A stretch of DNA of 64,000 nt from Octopus sinensis (taxonomy: Eukaryota), in assembly GCF_006345805.1 (NCBI RefSeq), contig NC_043008.1, positions 63,798,001-63,862,000 on the forward strand, read 5' to 3'. Numbering within the stretch: the stretch's first letter is position 1; each line of letters opens with the position of its first letter. A program made the position numbers and the translations under genes. The notes beneath the pieces are model-generated. The model worked only from the letters and a program-made list of their open reading frames with translations. It made no database searches and had not been told where the DNA came from. Below, one piece after another: positions 1,005 through 54,835 of this stretch.

Positions 1005-1745
1005 ATGCCGATTCTGTAACGATGAGGTTGAAACAATAGATCACCTAATCTCAGGGTGTAGAGTCTTAGCACCTGCAGAATTTAAAGCAAGACGTGACAG
1101 AGTCGACCAGTATTTACATTGGACAATATGTCGGCATTATAAAATCAAAACCACTGACAAATGGTATAAACATCATCCTGAAGCTGTGACTGAGGGAGAA
1201 AATGTGTCGATTCTATGGGACTTCCCCGTACAGACCGACAGGACTATAAAAGCTAATAAACTGGATATTATTATAAAAGATCAGACAAAAAGGACGTGTT
1301 TATTAATTGACATGAGTATTCCCTGTGATCACAATATGGCAGCAAAAGAATTTGACAAGATTAGTAAATATAAAGACCTGCTAATAGAAACTGAAAAAAT
1401 GTGGTATCTCAAGGTGACTACAGTACCAGTGATTGTAGGATCTCTAAGAATGATAAAAAAATGGTACTGAAACCTATTTGAAAATGATTTCAGGCTTACC
1501 ATCCCTACAGGAAATGCAAAAAGTCGTATTAACTGGAACGGCTCATGTACTGAGAAGAGCACTATGGCTGTGAAAATAACATCCATCCATGAATTTATTT
1601 AGTTATTAATTTTTAAATACATATTTCATCTTTGAATTTGCGCGTGTAATCTGGAAATGCATACAATGCCCTTCTCTGCCCTAGGTGTATGGAAAACACT
1701 CGGCGAGAAACGGAAGAAAATTTGAAGAAAGAAGGAAAAAACATG
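1005..1745 (+). mobile_element. 5'-truncated R4/Dong-like non-LTR retrotransposon (CCHC knuckle, RLE endonuclease, 3' UTR)
   Basis: CRFCNDEVETIDHLISGC, then ORF 1186-1470 LWDFPVQTDRTIKANKLDIII...LIDMSIP...KYKDL; inserted in (AAT)n. Confidence 0.88.
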
Positions 1746-1840: not shown

Positions 1841-2993
1841 AATAAAAACAATATATGTATAATATAATAAATGTACATATCTTAACTTATAAATTAACTA
1901 ATAAATATAGAAAAATACAGGTTTTAACAATAAATAAAAGAAAAAATTTAATAGTATTACTTAAAAAAACAGATCTTATCGAAGAAATTCTGTTTACTAA
2001 AATTTTAAATGTAATATATATAACTTAGCGTTTATAAGAAATTTATCGCGTGAAAACATGGTGTAAGTAAAAATTATAGAATAAATAGATAGATAGAAAT
2101 ATGCATTTAAGCTGTTAAAAAGACAGAATATATTATTTAGCTGTGAGAATAAGAAAAAAACTAACTGTAATATATTATTTACTGGAAAATTTTAAAGTCT
2201 ATATAATTTCCAAGTAAAATACGTAAAATATATAATATATATAAATTAACCTGAATTTCTATAATTTAATCTATTTACATTAATTAATTAATTTTTTTAT
2301 TTTCTAAACATCTAAGTTTAATCGTATTCTAATTATGTAATACACCTGTTCTAATATACACTATATTATGTGTTTAGCTAATTTGTGTATATATATAAAC
2401 CTTATTTTATGTTAATAATTGTTGTAGTTATAATTTGTAGTAGTATAATGTGTATGAATTAGCAAGAGATTATATAGTGTATATTACATAATTAGAATAA
2501 GATTAAATTTAGATGTTTATAATATAAATAAATAAATAAATGAAAGTAGATTAAATTATCGAAATTTAGCTTAATTTATGTATATTATGTATTTTACATA
2601 TTTTACTTTGAAATTATTTAGACTTTAAAATTTTCCAGTAAATAGTATATTACTGTTAGTTTTTTTCTTATTCTCACTGCTAAAAAATATATTTTGTCTT
2701 TCTGACAGCTTAAAAACATATTTCTATCTATCTATTTATTCTATAATTTTTACTTACACCATGTTTTCACGTGATAAATTTCTTATAAATGATAAATTTT
2801 TTATCAACGCTAAGTTCTAGATATTACGTTTAAAATTTTAGCTAACAGAATTTCTTCGATAAGATAAATTATGGTTTTATTTTAAGTAATACTGATAAAT
2901 TTTTTTCTATTATTTATTGTTAAAACACGTATTTTTCTATATTTATTAGTTAATTTATAAGTTTAGATACGTACATTTATTATATTTATATTG

Positions 2994-13282: not shown

Positions 13283-13309
13283 GAAAAAAAAAATAATAAT
13301 AATAATAAC

Positions 13310-13835
13310 AGAAAAAAAGATGGTATAGGCACACACCAGAAAAGGTCACAGAAAACGAGAAAGCAACCATACTCTGGGATATGCCGATACACACAGATAG
13401 AGAAATTAAGGCCAACAGACCAGATATAGTTGTCAGAGATCATGAAGAAAAAAAATGCTTTCTAATTGATGTATCAATACCGGCAGATGACAACGTGTCT
13501 CTAAAAGAAATGGAGAAACTCTCAAAATACAAAGACCTGGAAATAGAGGTAACTAGAATGTGGAACCGGAAAACAGAAACAATTCCTATCATAGTAGGTG
13601 CATTAGGCATGATAAAAAAATATTCAGACAAATACATAACAAAAACACCAGGACTTACAAACACATATAACATACAGAAAATTGCACTACTAGGCACTGC
13701 ACACATCCTACGCAGAACACTTTCCATACAATAACCATCAGAGCATCACAACAAATCACAGCACATACCCAAGGCACACAGAGCTGCGCTCGGTAGTGAA
13801 GTGAAAGCACGCTATAAAAATAAAACTACTGAATA
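13310..13835 (+). mobile_element. R4/Dong-like LINE 3' fragment (RLE domain)
   Basis: ORF 13381-13734 DREIKANRPDIVVRD...LIDVSIP..NVSLKEMEKLSKYKDL; ends aaaactactg-(aat)n. Confidence 0.92.
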
Positions 13836-23605: not shown

Positions 23606-24033
23606 TATGTTTGACTTTTGCTTTATATTTGTACAAGTTGGCTCCAAGTCTCACCCGAAGACCTCAAGAGACAACAGGTTGGAAGTTCATGTTGTTGTTA
23701 TGCCTAGTGTGCCATATATTTGGTGGTTTTTGTGCTGTACTGGTGGATGTCGGAAAAAAAAAAAAAGTTTGTTTTAAACCTTGAGATTACATAGAAAGTA
23801 TTTGGCGTAGGATATGAGCAGTTCCCATGAGCACTATCTTGTGAATTTTTGCCATTTTGGGGTTTCCTGGTATCTGAGTTAGGTAGCAATCAGCCCCTTT
23901 TGCTATCATTCCCAGGGCACCTATGACAACAGGTATTGTTTTAGTCTTCAGGTTCCACATTTTGCTGATTTCTATTTCAAGATCTTTATATTTGCTCAGT
24001 TTTTGGTAGGTCTTGACAGATACGTTTATATCG
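23606..24033 (-). mobile_element. R4/Dong-like LINE 3' fragment (second subfamily)
   Basis: Minus strand KTYQKLSKYKDLEIEISKMWNLKTKTIPVVIGALGMI; flanked by (ATT)n; reverse of 36857-37280. Confidence 0.88.
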
Positions 24034-24159
24034 ATTATTATTATTATTGTATCGTTATATCGATTATTATTATTATTATTATTATTATTGTTATTATTAT
24101 TGTTGTTATTATTGTTATTATTATTATTATTATTATTTATATTTTATATATATAGTAGT

Positions 24160-24613
24160 GTGGCCATGAAATCGTAGTCATGGTCATGAAATTGTAGTTT
24201 TGGCTGATGCTAGTGCCATCTGACTGAAATTGTAGTCACAGCTGATGCCAATGCCGTCTAACTGTCACCCATGCCGGTGGCATGGGAAAAGTACCGTTCG
24301 AGCTTTGGGCATCATGGAGGCAGTGACAGGTGACCAAGACCTTTGGTGATGTACCATGTTTGTGCAGGTCTGTCAAGCCAAGTGAGATCATAGTCATGGT
24401 TGATACCTGTGTCACATCAATGGCACCCATACTGGTGGCACATAAAAAGCACCCACTACATTCTTGGAGTGGTTGGCAATAGGAAGGGTATGCAGCTGTA
24501 GGAACCTTGCCAAATCAGAGTGGAACCTGGTGCAGTTCCCTGGCTTAGCAATTTTCAGTCAAACTGTCCTGCTTATACCCATATGGAAAGCAGATATTAA
24601 ACAATGATGATGA
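24160..24613 (+). mobile_element. RTE 3'-UTR-derived repeat
   Basis: aaaagcacccactaca...ggaagggtatgcagctgtag...atggaaagcagatattaaacaatgatgatga. Confidence 0.75.
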
Positions 24614-24775
24614 TATATAGCCGGCCCAAACTGCAAAGATGATCTGGAACTCAACTGAGGTCAGGAAGCTCCAAATGACCCCATCCTTGTTTATTCCTGT
24701 CTTTTTTTGTATTGTCTAACTGTCCAGATGTTTTGTAGTTGTCTGTTACGTCCTTGTTCCATTTTTTGTTTTCTT

Positions 24776-24824
<49 letters not shown>

Positions 24825-25033
24825 ATATATAATATATATATATATTATATAAAAGGGCTTAGTAAAATAAATTACTTTGCCGCATACTGAACTCATTAGA
24901 AATAGCAGCTAAAAAAACTTTTTTAAAACTATTTCTAATACTTAAAGAAAACCTCTCTCATGTAGTGTTTGCTCAACTCAACTCACGAAAATATGGGGGT
25001 AGAGACATTAAAAAATCAAGTGCAAAGGTTATT

Positions 25034-25086
25034 TGAGAACGTACGTTTCAAGATTAGTCAAACTCGACATTTCTATCATCAGCTCA
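25034..25086 (-). ncRNA. Mirror copy of the type-I hammerhead motif
   Basis: Exact reverse complement of 25630-25682. Confidence 0.75.
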
Positions 25087-25629
25087 GAACTCCCTGGTTT
25101 GGATTTGAAAACACTGAAAGTGGGAGCATACCCTTTCGGCTTCCTATCGCTTCTGAAGATCTGCTCGTAACTAACAGTGCCAACAAACTCAAAAATGCAA
25201 GCGAAGAATTTCTGCTCTCCCCTTTCCACCAGCGTGGGTTAAAATCAGCAAACACTATGCTTTTTTCGGTAAAATCCAAGGCATTATATAGAGAGAGATG
25301 AATTATAATTTCAACAATTGAGGGTAAAATTAATTAATTAATCAATTTCACCAAGTATTCAGTATGCACCAGTATTAATTAATTAATTTTACCCTCAATT
25401 GTTGAAATTATAATTCATCTCTCTATATATAATGCCTTGGATTTTACCGAAAAAAGCATAGTGTTTGCTGATTTTAACCCACGCTGGTGGAAAGGGGAGA
25501 GCAGAAATTCTTCGCTTGCATTTTTGAGTTTGTTGGCACTGTTAGTTACGAGCAGATCTTCAGAAGCGATAGGAAGCCGAAAGGGTATGCTCCCACTTTC
25601 AGTGTTTTCAAATCCAAACCAGGGAGTTC

Positions 25630-25682
25630 TGAGCTGATGATAGAAATGTCGAGTTTGACTAATCTTGAAACGTACGTTCTCA
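25630..25682 (+). ncRNA. Type-I hammerhead ribozyme motif, intact core
   Basis: tgag-CTGATGA-tagaaatgtcgagtttgactaatctt-GAAA-cgtacg-TT-ctca; stem I tgag/ctca; palindromic ACGTACGT stem III; GUU site. Confidence 0.75.
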
Positions 25683-25964
25683 AATAACCTTTGCACTTGA
25701 TTTTTTAATGTCTCTACCCCCATATTTTCGTGAGTTGAGTTGAGCAAACACTATATGAGAGAGGTTTTCTTTAAGTATTAGAAATAGTTTTAAAAAAGTT
25801 TTTTTAGCTGCTATTTCTAATGAGTTCAGTATGCGGCAAAGTAATTTATTTTACTAAGCCCTTTTATATAATGTAATAATTTGAATTCGCCTTAAATGGT
25901 CCCTTGCATACTGAATACTTGGTGAAATTGATTAATAATTAATTTTACCCTCAATTGTTGAAAT

Positions 25965-26012
<48 letters not shown>

Positions 26013-26024
26013 AATATATAATAT

Positions 26025-52666: not shown

Positions 52667-54835
52667 CATCATCATCCTCATCATCATCGTTTAACGTCCA
52701 TTTTCCGCGCTAGCACAGGTTGGACGGTTCGACCGTGGTCTGGGAAGCCAGGAGGCTGCACCAGGCTCCAGTCTGATCTGGCAGTGTTTCTACAGCTGGA
52801 TGCCCTTCCTAACGCCAGCCACTCCGCGAGTGTAGTGGGTGCTTTTTACGCGCCACCAGCACAGAAGCCAGTCGAGGCGGTGCTGATCTCAGCCACGTTT
52901 GGATGGTGTTTTTTATGTGCCACTGGCACAGGTATCACAACTACTATTTCCATTGATATTTATTTCGATGTTCATGTACCTGACTCAATAGGTCTCTTCA
53001 AGCACAGCGGGTTGTTCTGAAATCCAAGGTACTTTCGAATGGGCAGGGGCTATGCAGAACTGGTGCAGGAAGCAGCCCGGGTCTTTGCAGTCACAGCATA
53101 TCTCCAGAGGTTTCGGTCCTTCGTCATTGCCTCTGTGAAACCCAATGCTCTGAGGTCATGCTTGACTACCTCATCCCATGTCTTCCTGGGTCTACCTCTC
53201 CCTCTGATACCTTCAACTGATTGGGAGCGGCACTTCTTCACACATCTCTCCTCATCCATCCACAGTACATGGCCATACCATCGCAAGCGTCGCTCTTGCA
53301 TACCACATCTGATGCTTCTTATGTCCAGCATTTCTCTCAGAGTGCTTACACTCTGTCGTGCACGCACACTGACATTACACATCCAGTGGATCATGTTAGC
53401 TTCATTTCTTTCAAGTCTATGCATGTCCTCTGCAATCACAGCCCATGTTTCACTACCATGAAGCATAGCAGTTCACACACATGCATCATACAATCTACCT
53501 TTCACTCTGAGCGAGAGACTCTTTGTCGCCAGTAGGGGTAGGAGCTTTCTAAACTTTGCCCAGGCTATTCATATTCTAGTGGTGACACTCTCTGAGCATC
53601 CTCCTCCACTACTAACTTGATCACCCAGGTAGCGGAAACTATCAACTACTTCTAGTTTCTCCCCCTGGAGTGTGATGGAATCTGTTTTCTGAGTATCTGT
53701 GGTGTCTATTGTCCCTGTGCATCTGCCGCACATGAAAGCTATCTTGTCAGTTAATTTCCCTTTGATGTTGCTGCACCTCTTATGCGTCCATAGCTTACAC
53801 TGGGTACATCTTATGGAGTTTCTACCTACACCTTTCCTACTGATCAAGCATGGCCACCTGCCCGAGGGGGTGTGGGCTGAGTTCGCCTTTCTGCTTACTA
53901 TAACTTTGGTCTTTGCTACATTTACTCTAAGGCCCTTTGATTCTAACCCTTGCTTCCACACCTGAAATTTCTTTTCTAGTTCTGGTAGTGATTCTGCTAT
54001 GAGAGCCAGGTCATCAGCATAGAGGAGCTCCCAGGGGCACTCTGTTTTGAATTCCTCTGTTATTGCCTGGAGGACTATGATGAATAAAAGGGGACTGAGG
54101 GCTGAACCTTGGTTTACACCTACTTCTACCCGGAATTCTTCACTATATTCGTTGCCAATCCTAACCTTGCTGACAGCCTCTCTGTATAGGCCCTGTACAG
54201 CCCTTATTAGCCATTCGTCAATCTCCAGTTTCCGCATCGACCACCAGATAAGGGATCAGGGGACCCTGTCAAAGGCTTTCTCCAAGTCCACAAAAGCTAT
54301 GTAGAGGGGTTTATCTTTAGCTAGGTACTTCTCCTGCAGTTGTCGGACCAGGAATATAGCATCAGTGGTGCTTCTACCCAGCACAAAACCGAACTGCATC
54401 TCATCTAATGAGATGGGTTATGACCCTCTCTGTGATCTTCATCACCTGATCCAACAGTTTAATACCCCTGTAGTTATTTCTATCTAGAGCATCACCTTTA
54501 CCCTTGTAGCAGTTGACTATGGTGCTGCTACGCCAGTCATTGGGTATGACTCCATTATTAACTACCTGGTTTACAATGCGGGTGACTAGGCCATAGCCCA
54601 CACAACCAGCTGTCTTAAGCATCTCAGCAGTGATTCCTGATGGGCCGGGGGCTTTACCTGGTTTCATACCCTTAATTGCCTTAACTACAAGGGAGCTCTC
54701 TATTCGGATAGCTGGTCCCTCTACTGGGTCAACATTTGGCAGGCTCTCCTCCTCTCATTCATTCTCCACATTCAGCAGTCTTTCATAATGGCTTCTCCAA
54801 GCCTCTTTCTTTTCACCATCATTAAAAGCAAGCCA
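52667..54835 (-). mobile_element. 5'-truncated RTE-like LINE: RT, Cys-rich (PHD-like) insert, C-terminus, 3' UTR and (GAT)n tail
   Basis: ORFs 54401-54667 (GKAPGPSGI..NYRGIKLL), 53569-54237 (QGSALSP, LYADDL, CTQCKLWTHKRC) and 53050-53466 (HGSETW..RLRWYGH..GRPRKTW); disrupted. Confidence 0.95.

What the first reader, a model, noticed from the sequence alone, without database searches (positions are those of the whole stretch)
24844..25968. Very young ~556-nt circularly permuted unit with an intact hammerhead, inserted as an inverted dimer
The two 499-bp arms differ at only about 2 positions. The right copy runs on past the arm and returns to its own start (25931-25968 repeats 25374-25412, period ~556). 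The left arm read in reverse begins with the sequence of 25905-25930, so it crosses the monomer junction. This is what reverse transcription of a circular or multimeric RNA plus a template switch would leave. Each arm has tgag-CUGAUGA...GAAACGUACGUU-cuca. The 110-aa ORF has no recognisable domain. This is the best candidate for a recently active retrozyme-like circular RNA.
Basis: partly seen in the sequence, partly recalled or inferred. Interest (0 to 1): 0.8.

Follow-up and report, generated by a model that had tools for sequence, protein, structure and literature searches.

The report
Hammerhead retrozyme inserted by twin priming
This is one of roughly two thousand genomic insertions of a 558-base non-coding repeat that carries a hammerhead-ribozyme motif, and its mirror-image insertions almost always pair one long end with one short end, which likely records a borrowed Penelope-type enzyme starting two DNA copies, one on each side of a cut.

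Summary
Observation confirmed. The locus is one insertion of a large family: 2,728 exact hammerhead matches genome-wide (control 0), as monomers to 16-mers, inside (TA)n. It is a non-coding tandem unit with a type I hammerhead whose stems co-vary with a sister family, so it works like an animal non-LTR retrozyme. The insertion anatomy is Penelope-like: 5' ends are scattered, but 3' ends sit at two fixed sites about 94 nt apart (a long 'tail'). Head-to-head insertions pair one of each in 60 of 63 loci, and a coding Neptune-type element in the same genome does so in 7 of 7. Best model: a borrowed PLE enzyme cuts both strands of (TA)n, primes one cDNA per strand at the two sites, and the cDNAs are joined. 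Known class, apparently first cephalopod-like case, with a usefully quantified pairing rule.

The parts
24776..24843 (.). (TA)n target microsatellite, left side
24844..25368 (-). Short-ended (B) arm: unit positions 532-557 then 1 to about 499; 3' end at site B, running into (TA)n
25034..25086 (-). Type I hammerhead motif of the left arm (core begins 25082)
25369..25373 (.). 5-nt filler at the head-to-head junction of the two 5' ends
   Evidence: fillers seen in 22 of 60 junctions
25374..25968 (+). Tailed (A) arm: one full 557-nt unit plus the first 39 nt of the next; 3' end at site A
25374..25930 (+). One monomer of the repeat (unit positions 1-557); predicted highly self-paired when folded as a circle (63% paired, z -5.3)
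25630..25682 (+). Type I hammerhead motif: stem I 25630-25633/25679-25682, core 25634-25640, stem II with U.U at its base, GAAA 25667-25670, minimal stem III with palindromic loop, predicted cut 25678/25679 after GUU
   Evidence: cleavage itself not tested
25777..25821 (+). Internal hairpin (unit 404-448); its 5' base is a hotspot of 5' ends across the family (11 of 159 ends in unit 400-404)
25870..25875 (+). Site B (short 3' end; inferred RT start site), unit about 497-502
25876..25968 (+). About 94-nt 'tail' between site B and site A, present on one arm only
25965..26024 (.). (TA)n target microsatellite, right side

Best explanation
The locus is one insertion of a non-coding, hammerhead-bearing 558-bp tandem repeat family whose head-to-head copies pair two fixed 3' ends, and it was likely made by a borrowed Penelope-type reverse transcriptase-endonuclease that primed two cDNAs at once. 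Shown: family size, tandem arrays, (TA)n targeting, two fixed 3' ends about 94 nt apart, scattered 5' ends, one-long/one-short pairing, same-source arms, conserved hammerhead fold. Inferred steps: (1) tandem arrays are transcribed and would self-cleave, probably as ribozyme dimers because stem III is minimal and palindromic, and monomers would be ligated to circles as in other animal retrozymes; (2) a PLE protein, probably a dimer, binds the RNA near unit 400-557/1-39 and cuts both strands of a (TA)n tract; (3) one DNA end primes at site A and the other at site B; (4) each RT runs a variable distance, often past one monomer (rolling round a circle, or along an uncleaved multimer); (5) the two cDNA ends are joined by microhomology or filler, giving head-to-head arms; if only one priming survives, a direct monomer or array results. 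This copy has one ribozyme per strand, so it is an end product, and a read-through transcript would fold into a 500-bp hairpin.
For: 2,728 hammerhead matches; 1,933 exact A ends and 1,212 exact B ends into TA; 166 of 168 3' ends followed by a TA run. Pairing A+B in 60 of 63 inverted loci, 28 of 30 in the position-ordered C1 sample, and 31 of 32 from pattern lists alone (p about 1e-8 against 50%); the one exception in the lists is an internal variant and that locus is A+B. Both end types also occur alone (9 A, 6 B in the C1 sample), so both are usable start sites. A coding Neptune-type PLE of the same genome targets (TA)n, has a tail of about 37 nt and pairs short with tailed in 7 of 7 (p 4e-4 at its end frequencies). 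Arms of one locus differ by 0.83% against a between-locus median of 2.7%; 5 locus-private alleles are fixed across both arms. Inner ends of the two arms are unrelated modulo the period (KS p 0.43; 10 of 60 within 30 nt, 6.6 expected) and junctions show 1-7 nt overlap in 31, filler in 22, blunt in 5, longer overlap in 2 of 60. 51 of 84 arms in the C1 sample exceed one monomer. Hammerhead stems: 90% of cells paired, 7 of 16 pairs changed on both sides, mostly between two sister families. In vitro a PLE protein cuts and extends both strands from two internal start sites that define the tail, and is predicted dimeric (PMC11167929).
Against: No coding PLE sharing sequence with the unit was found, and the 94-nt tail is longer than the published 30-40 bp and than the 37 nt of the Neptune-type family here. 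No cleavage or circle was observed; the ribozyme has weak features (GUU, U.U at the base of stem II, one-pair stem III) and the isolated motif folds no better than shuffles (z +1.1). 5' ends are not significantly enriched at the cut site (6 of 159 within 3 nt, nominal p 0.016, not significant after scanning). In vitro the PLE used unprocessed RNA and showed no strand difference in start site (PMC11167929). Arms share slightly more variants in the 3' register (0.67% vs 0.92%, p 0.012), which fits a heterogeneous linear template better than one circle. This locus alone also fits fold-back priming (offset 28 nt).
Confidence: 0.7

Rival explanations
1. Same element and same two-primer insertion, but the template is a linear, uncleaved multimeric transcript of a genomic array; circles, if made, are a side product.
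For: In-register arms are more alike than off-register ones (25 of 38 loci lower, 9 higher, p 0.012); L188 carries 4 monomer-specific alleles in register on both arms; every multi-monomer arm crosses the cut site intact; unprocessed RNA was the dominant substrate in vitro (PMC11167929).
Against: No pair of monomers from different loci shares two or more monomer-specific alleles (0 among 170 monomers; shuffle mean 0.6) and sharing of one allele is below the shuffle level (98 vs 146), so no ordered master array was seen, though only about 100 loci were sampled; 9 private alleles are fixed through whole arrays. Terminal monomers carry slightly fewer variants (0.34% vs 0.38%), which could inflate the register effect.
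Confidence: 0.3
2. The inversion comes from fold-back self-priming (for instance on an antisense strand, as proposed in PMC3846280), and the endonuclease later resolves the hairpin with a staggered cut that leaves one long and one short end.
For: A staggered cut would give the pairing rule; 8 of 60 loci, this one included, have inner ends within 60 nt in the 3' register (4.2 expected, p 0.05); 5' ends pile up at the base of an internal hairpin (11 of 159, scan-corrected p under 0.001).
Against: 52 of 60 loci have unrelated inner ends, some differing by 1-8 kb, and offsets modulo the period are uniform; each end type also occurs in single-arm copies.
Confidence: 0.15
3. The unit is the solo terminal repeat (pLTR) of a coding Penelope-like element, and these loci are its 5'-truncated remains.
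For: Insertion anatomy is that of PLEs; retrozymes in frogs are homologous to pLTRs (10.64898/2026.07.22.740005); only 150 of 5,029 GIY-YIG candidates were scored.
Against: In about 100 loci the sequence upstream of unit position 1 is always position 557, never an ORF; of 180 5' flanks, 3 held PLE coding DNA, none continuous with the arm; arrays reach 16 units.
Confidence: 0.07
4. The palindrome is an assembly or fold-back read artefact.
For: Long palindromes in AT-rich repeats are error-prone; this junction was not checked in reads.
Against: 63 inverted loci with different centres and the same end rule; arms here differ at 2 sites and have a non-palindromic spacer; contigs of two public runs hold opposite-strand joints at other centres.
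Confidence: 0.02

Closest known systems
Animal non-LTR retrozymes (Cervera and de la Pena 2020, PMC7229834; Li et al. preprint 10.64898/2026.07.22.740005)
   Same: Non-coding, AT-rich tandem repeats with one type I hammerhead per unit, monomers to long arrays, thousands of copies, predicted self-paired circle; stem features match the two axolotl ribozymes (one-pair stem III with palindromic loop; U.U at the base of stem II).
   Different: 558-nt unit, longer than the 170-400 nt circles of the 2020 paper though inside the 51-972 bp of the preprint; strict (TA)n targeting; two fixed 3' ends and frequent head-to-head inversion, not described in the parts of those papers I read; GUU/GUA triplet; no cleavage or circle shown here.
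EN+ Penelope-like elements with inverted 5' copy and tail (Arkhipova et al. 2013, PMC3846280; Craig et al. 2021, PMC8557442; Frangieh et al. 2024, PMC11167929)
   Same: 5' truncation, head-to-head inverted copy, tail at one end only, microsatellite target, hammerhead with palindromic stem III.
   Different: No RT or GIY-YIG frame; tail about 94 nt rather than 30-40; repeats are whole units in long tandem rather than partial tandems of a coding element.
Non-autonomous Chlamys elements such as MRC1 (PMC8557442)
   Same: Non-coding PLE parasites with multicopy head-to-tail insertions.
   Different: Those resemble their autonomous partner at the 3' end and the clade lacks canonical hammerheads; here there is a hammerhead and no partner homology was found.
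LINE-1 twin priming (recalled, no call)
   Same: Head-to-head inversion from two target-primed cDNAs joined by microhomology.
   Different: In L1 the second primer anneals at variable internal sites and the arms do not overlap; here both start sites are fixed and the arms overlap over whole monomers.

Membership tests
Animal non-LTR retrozyme | [quoted passage not shown] | tested here: met
   Period 537-568, mode 558; arrays to 16 units on many contigs
Animal non-LTR retrozyme | Type I hammerhead in each unit with conserved core and stems | tested here: met
   Core nearly invariant in about 160 monomers not selected on the motif; stems co-vary with sister family; Rfam gives no hit
Animal non-LTR retrozyme | No protein-coding capacity; GC under 50% | tested here: met
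   110-aa frame without Pfam hit, open in 113 of 212 monomers; GC 0.34 in 24001-26000
Animal non-LTR retrozyme | [quoted passage not shown] | tested here: not met
   Not met by this locus (one ribozyme per strand); met by many other loci of the family
Animal non-LTR retrozyme | Self-cleavage of the RNA | not testable with these tools
   Needs in vitro transcription; 8 of 9 predicted frog elements did not cleave in the preprint
Animal non-LTR retrozyme | Expressed as circular and linear monomer RNA | tested here: inconclusive
   Only contigs of runs guessed to be RNA; they cover the unit and the junction, with clustered A-to-G loose ends in two runs; contigs cannot show circles, ends or strand
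Animal non-LTR retrozyme | Highly self-paired predicted circle | tested here: met
   -146 kcal/mol, 63% paired, z -5.3 against 40 dinucleotide shuffles
Animal non-LTR retrozyme | Target-site duplication longer than 4 bp when present | not testable with these tools
   Insertions lie inside (TA)n, where a duplication cannot be read
Autonomous Penelope-like element | ORF with telomerase-like RT and GIY-YIG endonuclease | tested here: not met
   None in the unit or joined to it
PLE-type insertion (non-autonomous) | Inverted 5'-truncated copy, head to head | tested here: met
   63 of 96 simple loci; 30 of 45 in the C1 sample
PLE-type insertion (non-autonomous) | [quoted passage not shown] | tested here: met
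   Two ends about 94 nt apart, paired in 60 of 63; longer than the published 30-40 bp
PLE-type insertion (non-autonomous) | Sequence homology to the terminal repeat of a co-resident autonomous PLE | tested here: inconclusive
   None among about 45 PLE loci of several families; most PLE candidates were not scored

The most novel reading that the evidence does not exclude
A circular ribozyme RNA is copied by a Penelope-type enzyme dimer that holds one RNA at two fixed start sites about 94 nt apart and primes both strands of a double-strand cut in (TA)n, with both RTs able to roll round the circle. The one-long/one-short rule, shared with a coding element of the same genome, would then be the general explanation of Penelope head-to-head inversions and tails, and the first mechanistic (not just co-occurrence or homology) link between animal retrozymes and PLE machinery.
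Probability: 0.35. Interest if true: 0.75.

Novelty: new variant of a known kind. Interest (0 to 1): 0.52.

Why it matters
How Penelope-like elements make their head-to-head inversions and tails is an open question, and that retrozymes use their machinery has rested on co-occurrence and sequence likeness. This family gives about two thousand young insertions in which both questions can be counted: two fixed start sites, near-obligate pairing, unrelated inner ends, same-source arms. It supplies a short, protein-free RNA substrate for an in vitro test of coupled two-strand priming and of circular versus linear templates. The class itself is known, which caps the surprise.

Tried and rejected
Rfam: no hit at gathering level; at E-value level only hairpin-driven miRNA models on the palindrome. 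Folding the isolated ribozyme: no better than shuffles, and the predicted monomer and homodimer folds did not give the active form, so the fold rests on covariation. Search for the autonomous partner: PF26215 is not in the library; GIY-YIG search gave several Neptune-type families with no blastn or nhmmer similarity to the unit; a PLE lying between two arrays (L159) and one abutting an end (L161) are separate insertions bounded by (TA)n; a relaxed ribozyme pattern gave only a non-coding sister family, variants and chance hits (120 matches, control 42; 100 listed, 14 loci examined). Enrichment of 5' ends at the cut site: not significant after scanning. My first nesting test against fold-back (27 of 60 not nested) was too strict, since this locus fails it yet fits a fold-back with a 31-nt loop; it was replaced by the offset test. 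Editing footprint in genomic copies: none, A>G 31 vs T>C 30. Sequencing runs: no RNA holder listed on record; all were contigs, no ends or strands readable. Structure string was misregistered for three helices; one search is the correct one. MITE or fold-back DNA transposon: rejected, because centres vary, arms are unequal and direct arrays are common. Earlier findings by sequence and by place: nothing.

Full report
Coordinates. Unit position q1-q557 is window 25374-25930. The genome has 2.72 Gb in 13,516 contigs; the flanking short repeats look octopus-like to me (recalled, no call), so 'cephalopod-like' below is an inference.

1. Observation. The arms are 24841-25342 and 25374-25875, 99% complementary, 31 nt apart. 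They differ at two internal sites and one at the TA border; the spacer in reverse is 5 filler bases plus q532-557; 25931-25968 repeats q1-39. The left arm thus reads q532-557, q1-499 on the minus strand and the right arm q1-557, q1-39 on the plus strand: 5' ends meet in the middle and both 3' ends face outward into (TA)n. One hammerhead motif lies on each arm.

2. Family. The unit has at least 211 matches among 40 of 1,745 candidates scored, 96-99% identical, in direct arrays up to 16 units. The exact ribozyme pattern occurs 2,728 times, control 0. I examined three sets: top hits, top hits, and a position-ordered sample of the loci listed for the first 97 Mb of contig C1, which is unbiased except that it needs an intact ribozyme. 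103 loci were parsed. Seven complex or partly covered ones (L015, L016, L017, L032, L122, L157, L159) were left out of the tallies, leaving 96; five loci that were not fully covered (L060, L062, L066, L075, L079) were not parsed. Period is 537-568 nt, mode 558. 166 of 168 3' ends are followed by a TA run, and 31 of 34 single-arm 5' ends are preceded by one. Subfamilies at 86-91% identity exist, one with a GUA triplet.

3. Two fixed 3' ends. Arms end either at q35-41 (site A) or q494-514 (site B). Exact patterns give 1,933 A ends and 1,212 B ends genome-wide, controls 0 and 4, so there are roughly two thousand insertions or more; a few matches are internal variants. The stretch between B and A is about 94 nt. 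PLE papers call this the tail: 30-40 bp, often at one end only (PMC8557442, passages; PMC3846280, passages), and in vitro it is the interval between two RT start sites (PMC11167929, parts 1-2 of 4).

4. Pairing rule. Of 63 head-to-head loci, 60 are A+B, one A+A and two have an irregular end; in the C1 sample 28 of 30. Pairing the pattern lists alone, with no selection on the ribozyme, gives 31 A+B of 32 (p about 1e-8 against 50%); the exception is an internal variant in L158, which is A+B. Single-arm copies use both ends (9 A, 6 B in the C1 sample), so the rule is not forced by one end being unusable. A young coding Neptune-type PLE in this genome (781-aa RT plus GIY-YIG frame; clade name assigned by me from its domain order and linker cysteines, not from a tree) also ends in (TA)n at two sites about 37 nt apart, and its 7 head-to-head pairs on C1 and C2 are all short+tailed although short ends outnumber tailed ones 91 to 24 (p 4e-4; these 7 were paired from positions, not inspected).

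5. The centre. The 159 5' ends spread round the whole unit, with one hotspot at q400-404, the base of an internal hairpin (11 ends, scan-corrected p under 0.001), and no significant excess at the ribozyme cut site. Inner ends of paired arms are unrelated modulo the period (KS p 0.43), arm lengths are weakly or not correlated (rho 0.26, p 0.045 for 60 loci; p 0.19 in the C1 sample), and junctions have microhomology (31), filler (22), blunt (5) or longer overlap (2). Eight of 60, this locus among them, lie within 60 nt in the 3' register (4.2 expected, p 0.05), so a minority may be fold-backs.

6. Template. Monomers within an arm differ by 0.73%, across arms by 0.83%, between loci by a median 2.7%. 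The nearest other locus is about as close (median 0.62%), so this shows a shared source lineage, not a shared molecule. For a single monomer template: 9 private alleles fixed through a locus, 5 across both arms; no monomers of different loci share two specific alleles. For a heterogeneous multimer: in-register arm pairs differ less (0.67% vs 0.92%, 25 lower, 9 higher, 4 ties, p 0.012) and L188 shows four alleles in register. Assembly error in tandem repeats may contribute to all of these. The circle is therefore about an even bet.

7. Ribozyme. The core is nearly invariant in about 160 monomers from the two sets not selected on it (one core position varies in 8 of 160). A relaxed pattern uncovered a sister non-coding family (about 540 bp, 61% identical over q250-572) with a U3-A8 core, GUC triplet, re-paired stem I and the same two end sites. 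On 14 aligned motifs, 90% of cells pair and 7 of 16 pairs change on both sides, against at most 2 when partners are slid; most changes fall on the one branch between the families, so they are few events. One-pair stem III with a palindromic loop is the form that cleaves as a dimer (PMC4209133, part 1 of 4; PMC7229834, parts 2-4 of 6). The monomer folded as a circle is 63% paired, z -5.3. Cleavage is not shown, and in the frog preprint only 1 of 9 predicted elements cleaved (10.64898/2026.07.22.740005, parts 1-3 of 5).

8. Expression. 19 of 24 listed runs hold the unit, none on record as RNA. Four were laid: all cover the unit and the q557-q1 junction, two hold opposite-strand joints. One loose end in run X2 matches 25832-25861 with 6 of 9 A read as G and no other change, and one in X10 shows a similar cluster with a few other differences (compared by eye). 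That is the pattern of ADAR hyper-editing (own knowledge) and hints at double-stranded transcripts, but each is one contig.

9. Partner. None of about 45 PLE loci of several families shares sequence with the unit, and 3 of 180 5' flanks hold PLE coding DNA, none continuous with the arm. Candidates exist, since several families target (TA)n and one has intact frames, but the partner is unidentified.

10. Mechanism. See best explanation: a PLE protein cuts both strands of (TA)n, one end primes at A and the other at B, each RT runs a variable distance, and the cDNA ends are joined. My odds: class (non-autonomous, PLE-mobilised retrozyme) about 0.85; two-primer origin of the inversion about 0.65; circular template about 0.5. 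This copy cannot release a monomer, having one ribozyme per strand.

11. Novelty. Retrozymes, their proposed PLE dependence, head-to-head inversions and one-ended tails are all in print. Searches for hammerhead + Penelope-like + octopus, retrozyme + cephalopod and Penelope + twin priming + tail returned no description of this family or of a counted pairing rule; searches added none (listings only, apart from the papers named above). I saw no supplements and cannot search Repbase or Dfam, where the repeat may already be filed. I rate it a new variant of a known kind, interest 0.52.

Noticed in passing
L209, L211, L214-L218, L220, L222, L223, L226, L228, L229: Sister non-coding family, about 540-bp unit, hammerhead with U3-A8 (or U3-G8) core and GUC triplet, tandem and inverted copies, homologous two end sites about 109 nt apart. 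A third relative at 68% identity, also inverted, is in L235; an old 67-75% inverted fragment is in L103/L162.
   Followed up: partly
L141:1174-4877 (also L142-L145, L149-L154): Young Neptune-type PLE family with two overlapping frames (479 aa, then 781 aa RT plus GIY-YIG, overlap about 80 nt), which is unusual for single-ORF PLEs and may be a frameshift arrangement; U3-A8 hammerhead variant in its 3' repeat; 475 short and 157 tailed ends genome-wide.
   Followed up: partly
window 25856-25861 and 25946-25951: A CCCT motif lies 10-17 nt upstream of both end sites, in this family and in the sister family; candidate positioning signal for the RT.
   Followed up: no
L036:1184-6347 and L031:181-9118: Monomer-specific alleles recur with period 4 in L036 and partly period 3 in L031, period 2 in L035; could reflect multimeric circles, block duplication or polishing error.
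   Followed up: no
L161 and L163 (C1:29149975-29150028): Neptune-type PLE ends and retrozyme ends share one (TA)n tract, showing nested use of the same target.
   Followed up: partly
L017: Complex insertion with six alternating arms and repeated B ends.
   Followed up: no
window 1006-1467, 13309-13731, 53053-54255: Fragments that read like restriction-endonuclease-type LINE C-termini beside (TAA)n, and RTE-like RT fragments (labels recalled, not tested).
   Followed up: no
window 2016-2804 and 250-420: A 279-nt inverted repeat (90%) near CTGATGAG motifs at 976 (-) and about 3160 (+), and a small inverted pair with CTGAAGA..GAAA motifs at 311/372; possibly other PLE-type remnants.
   Followed up: no
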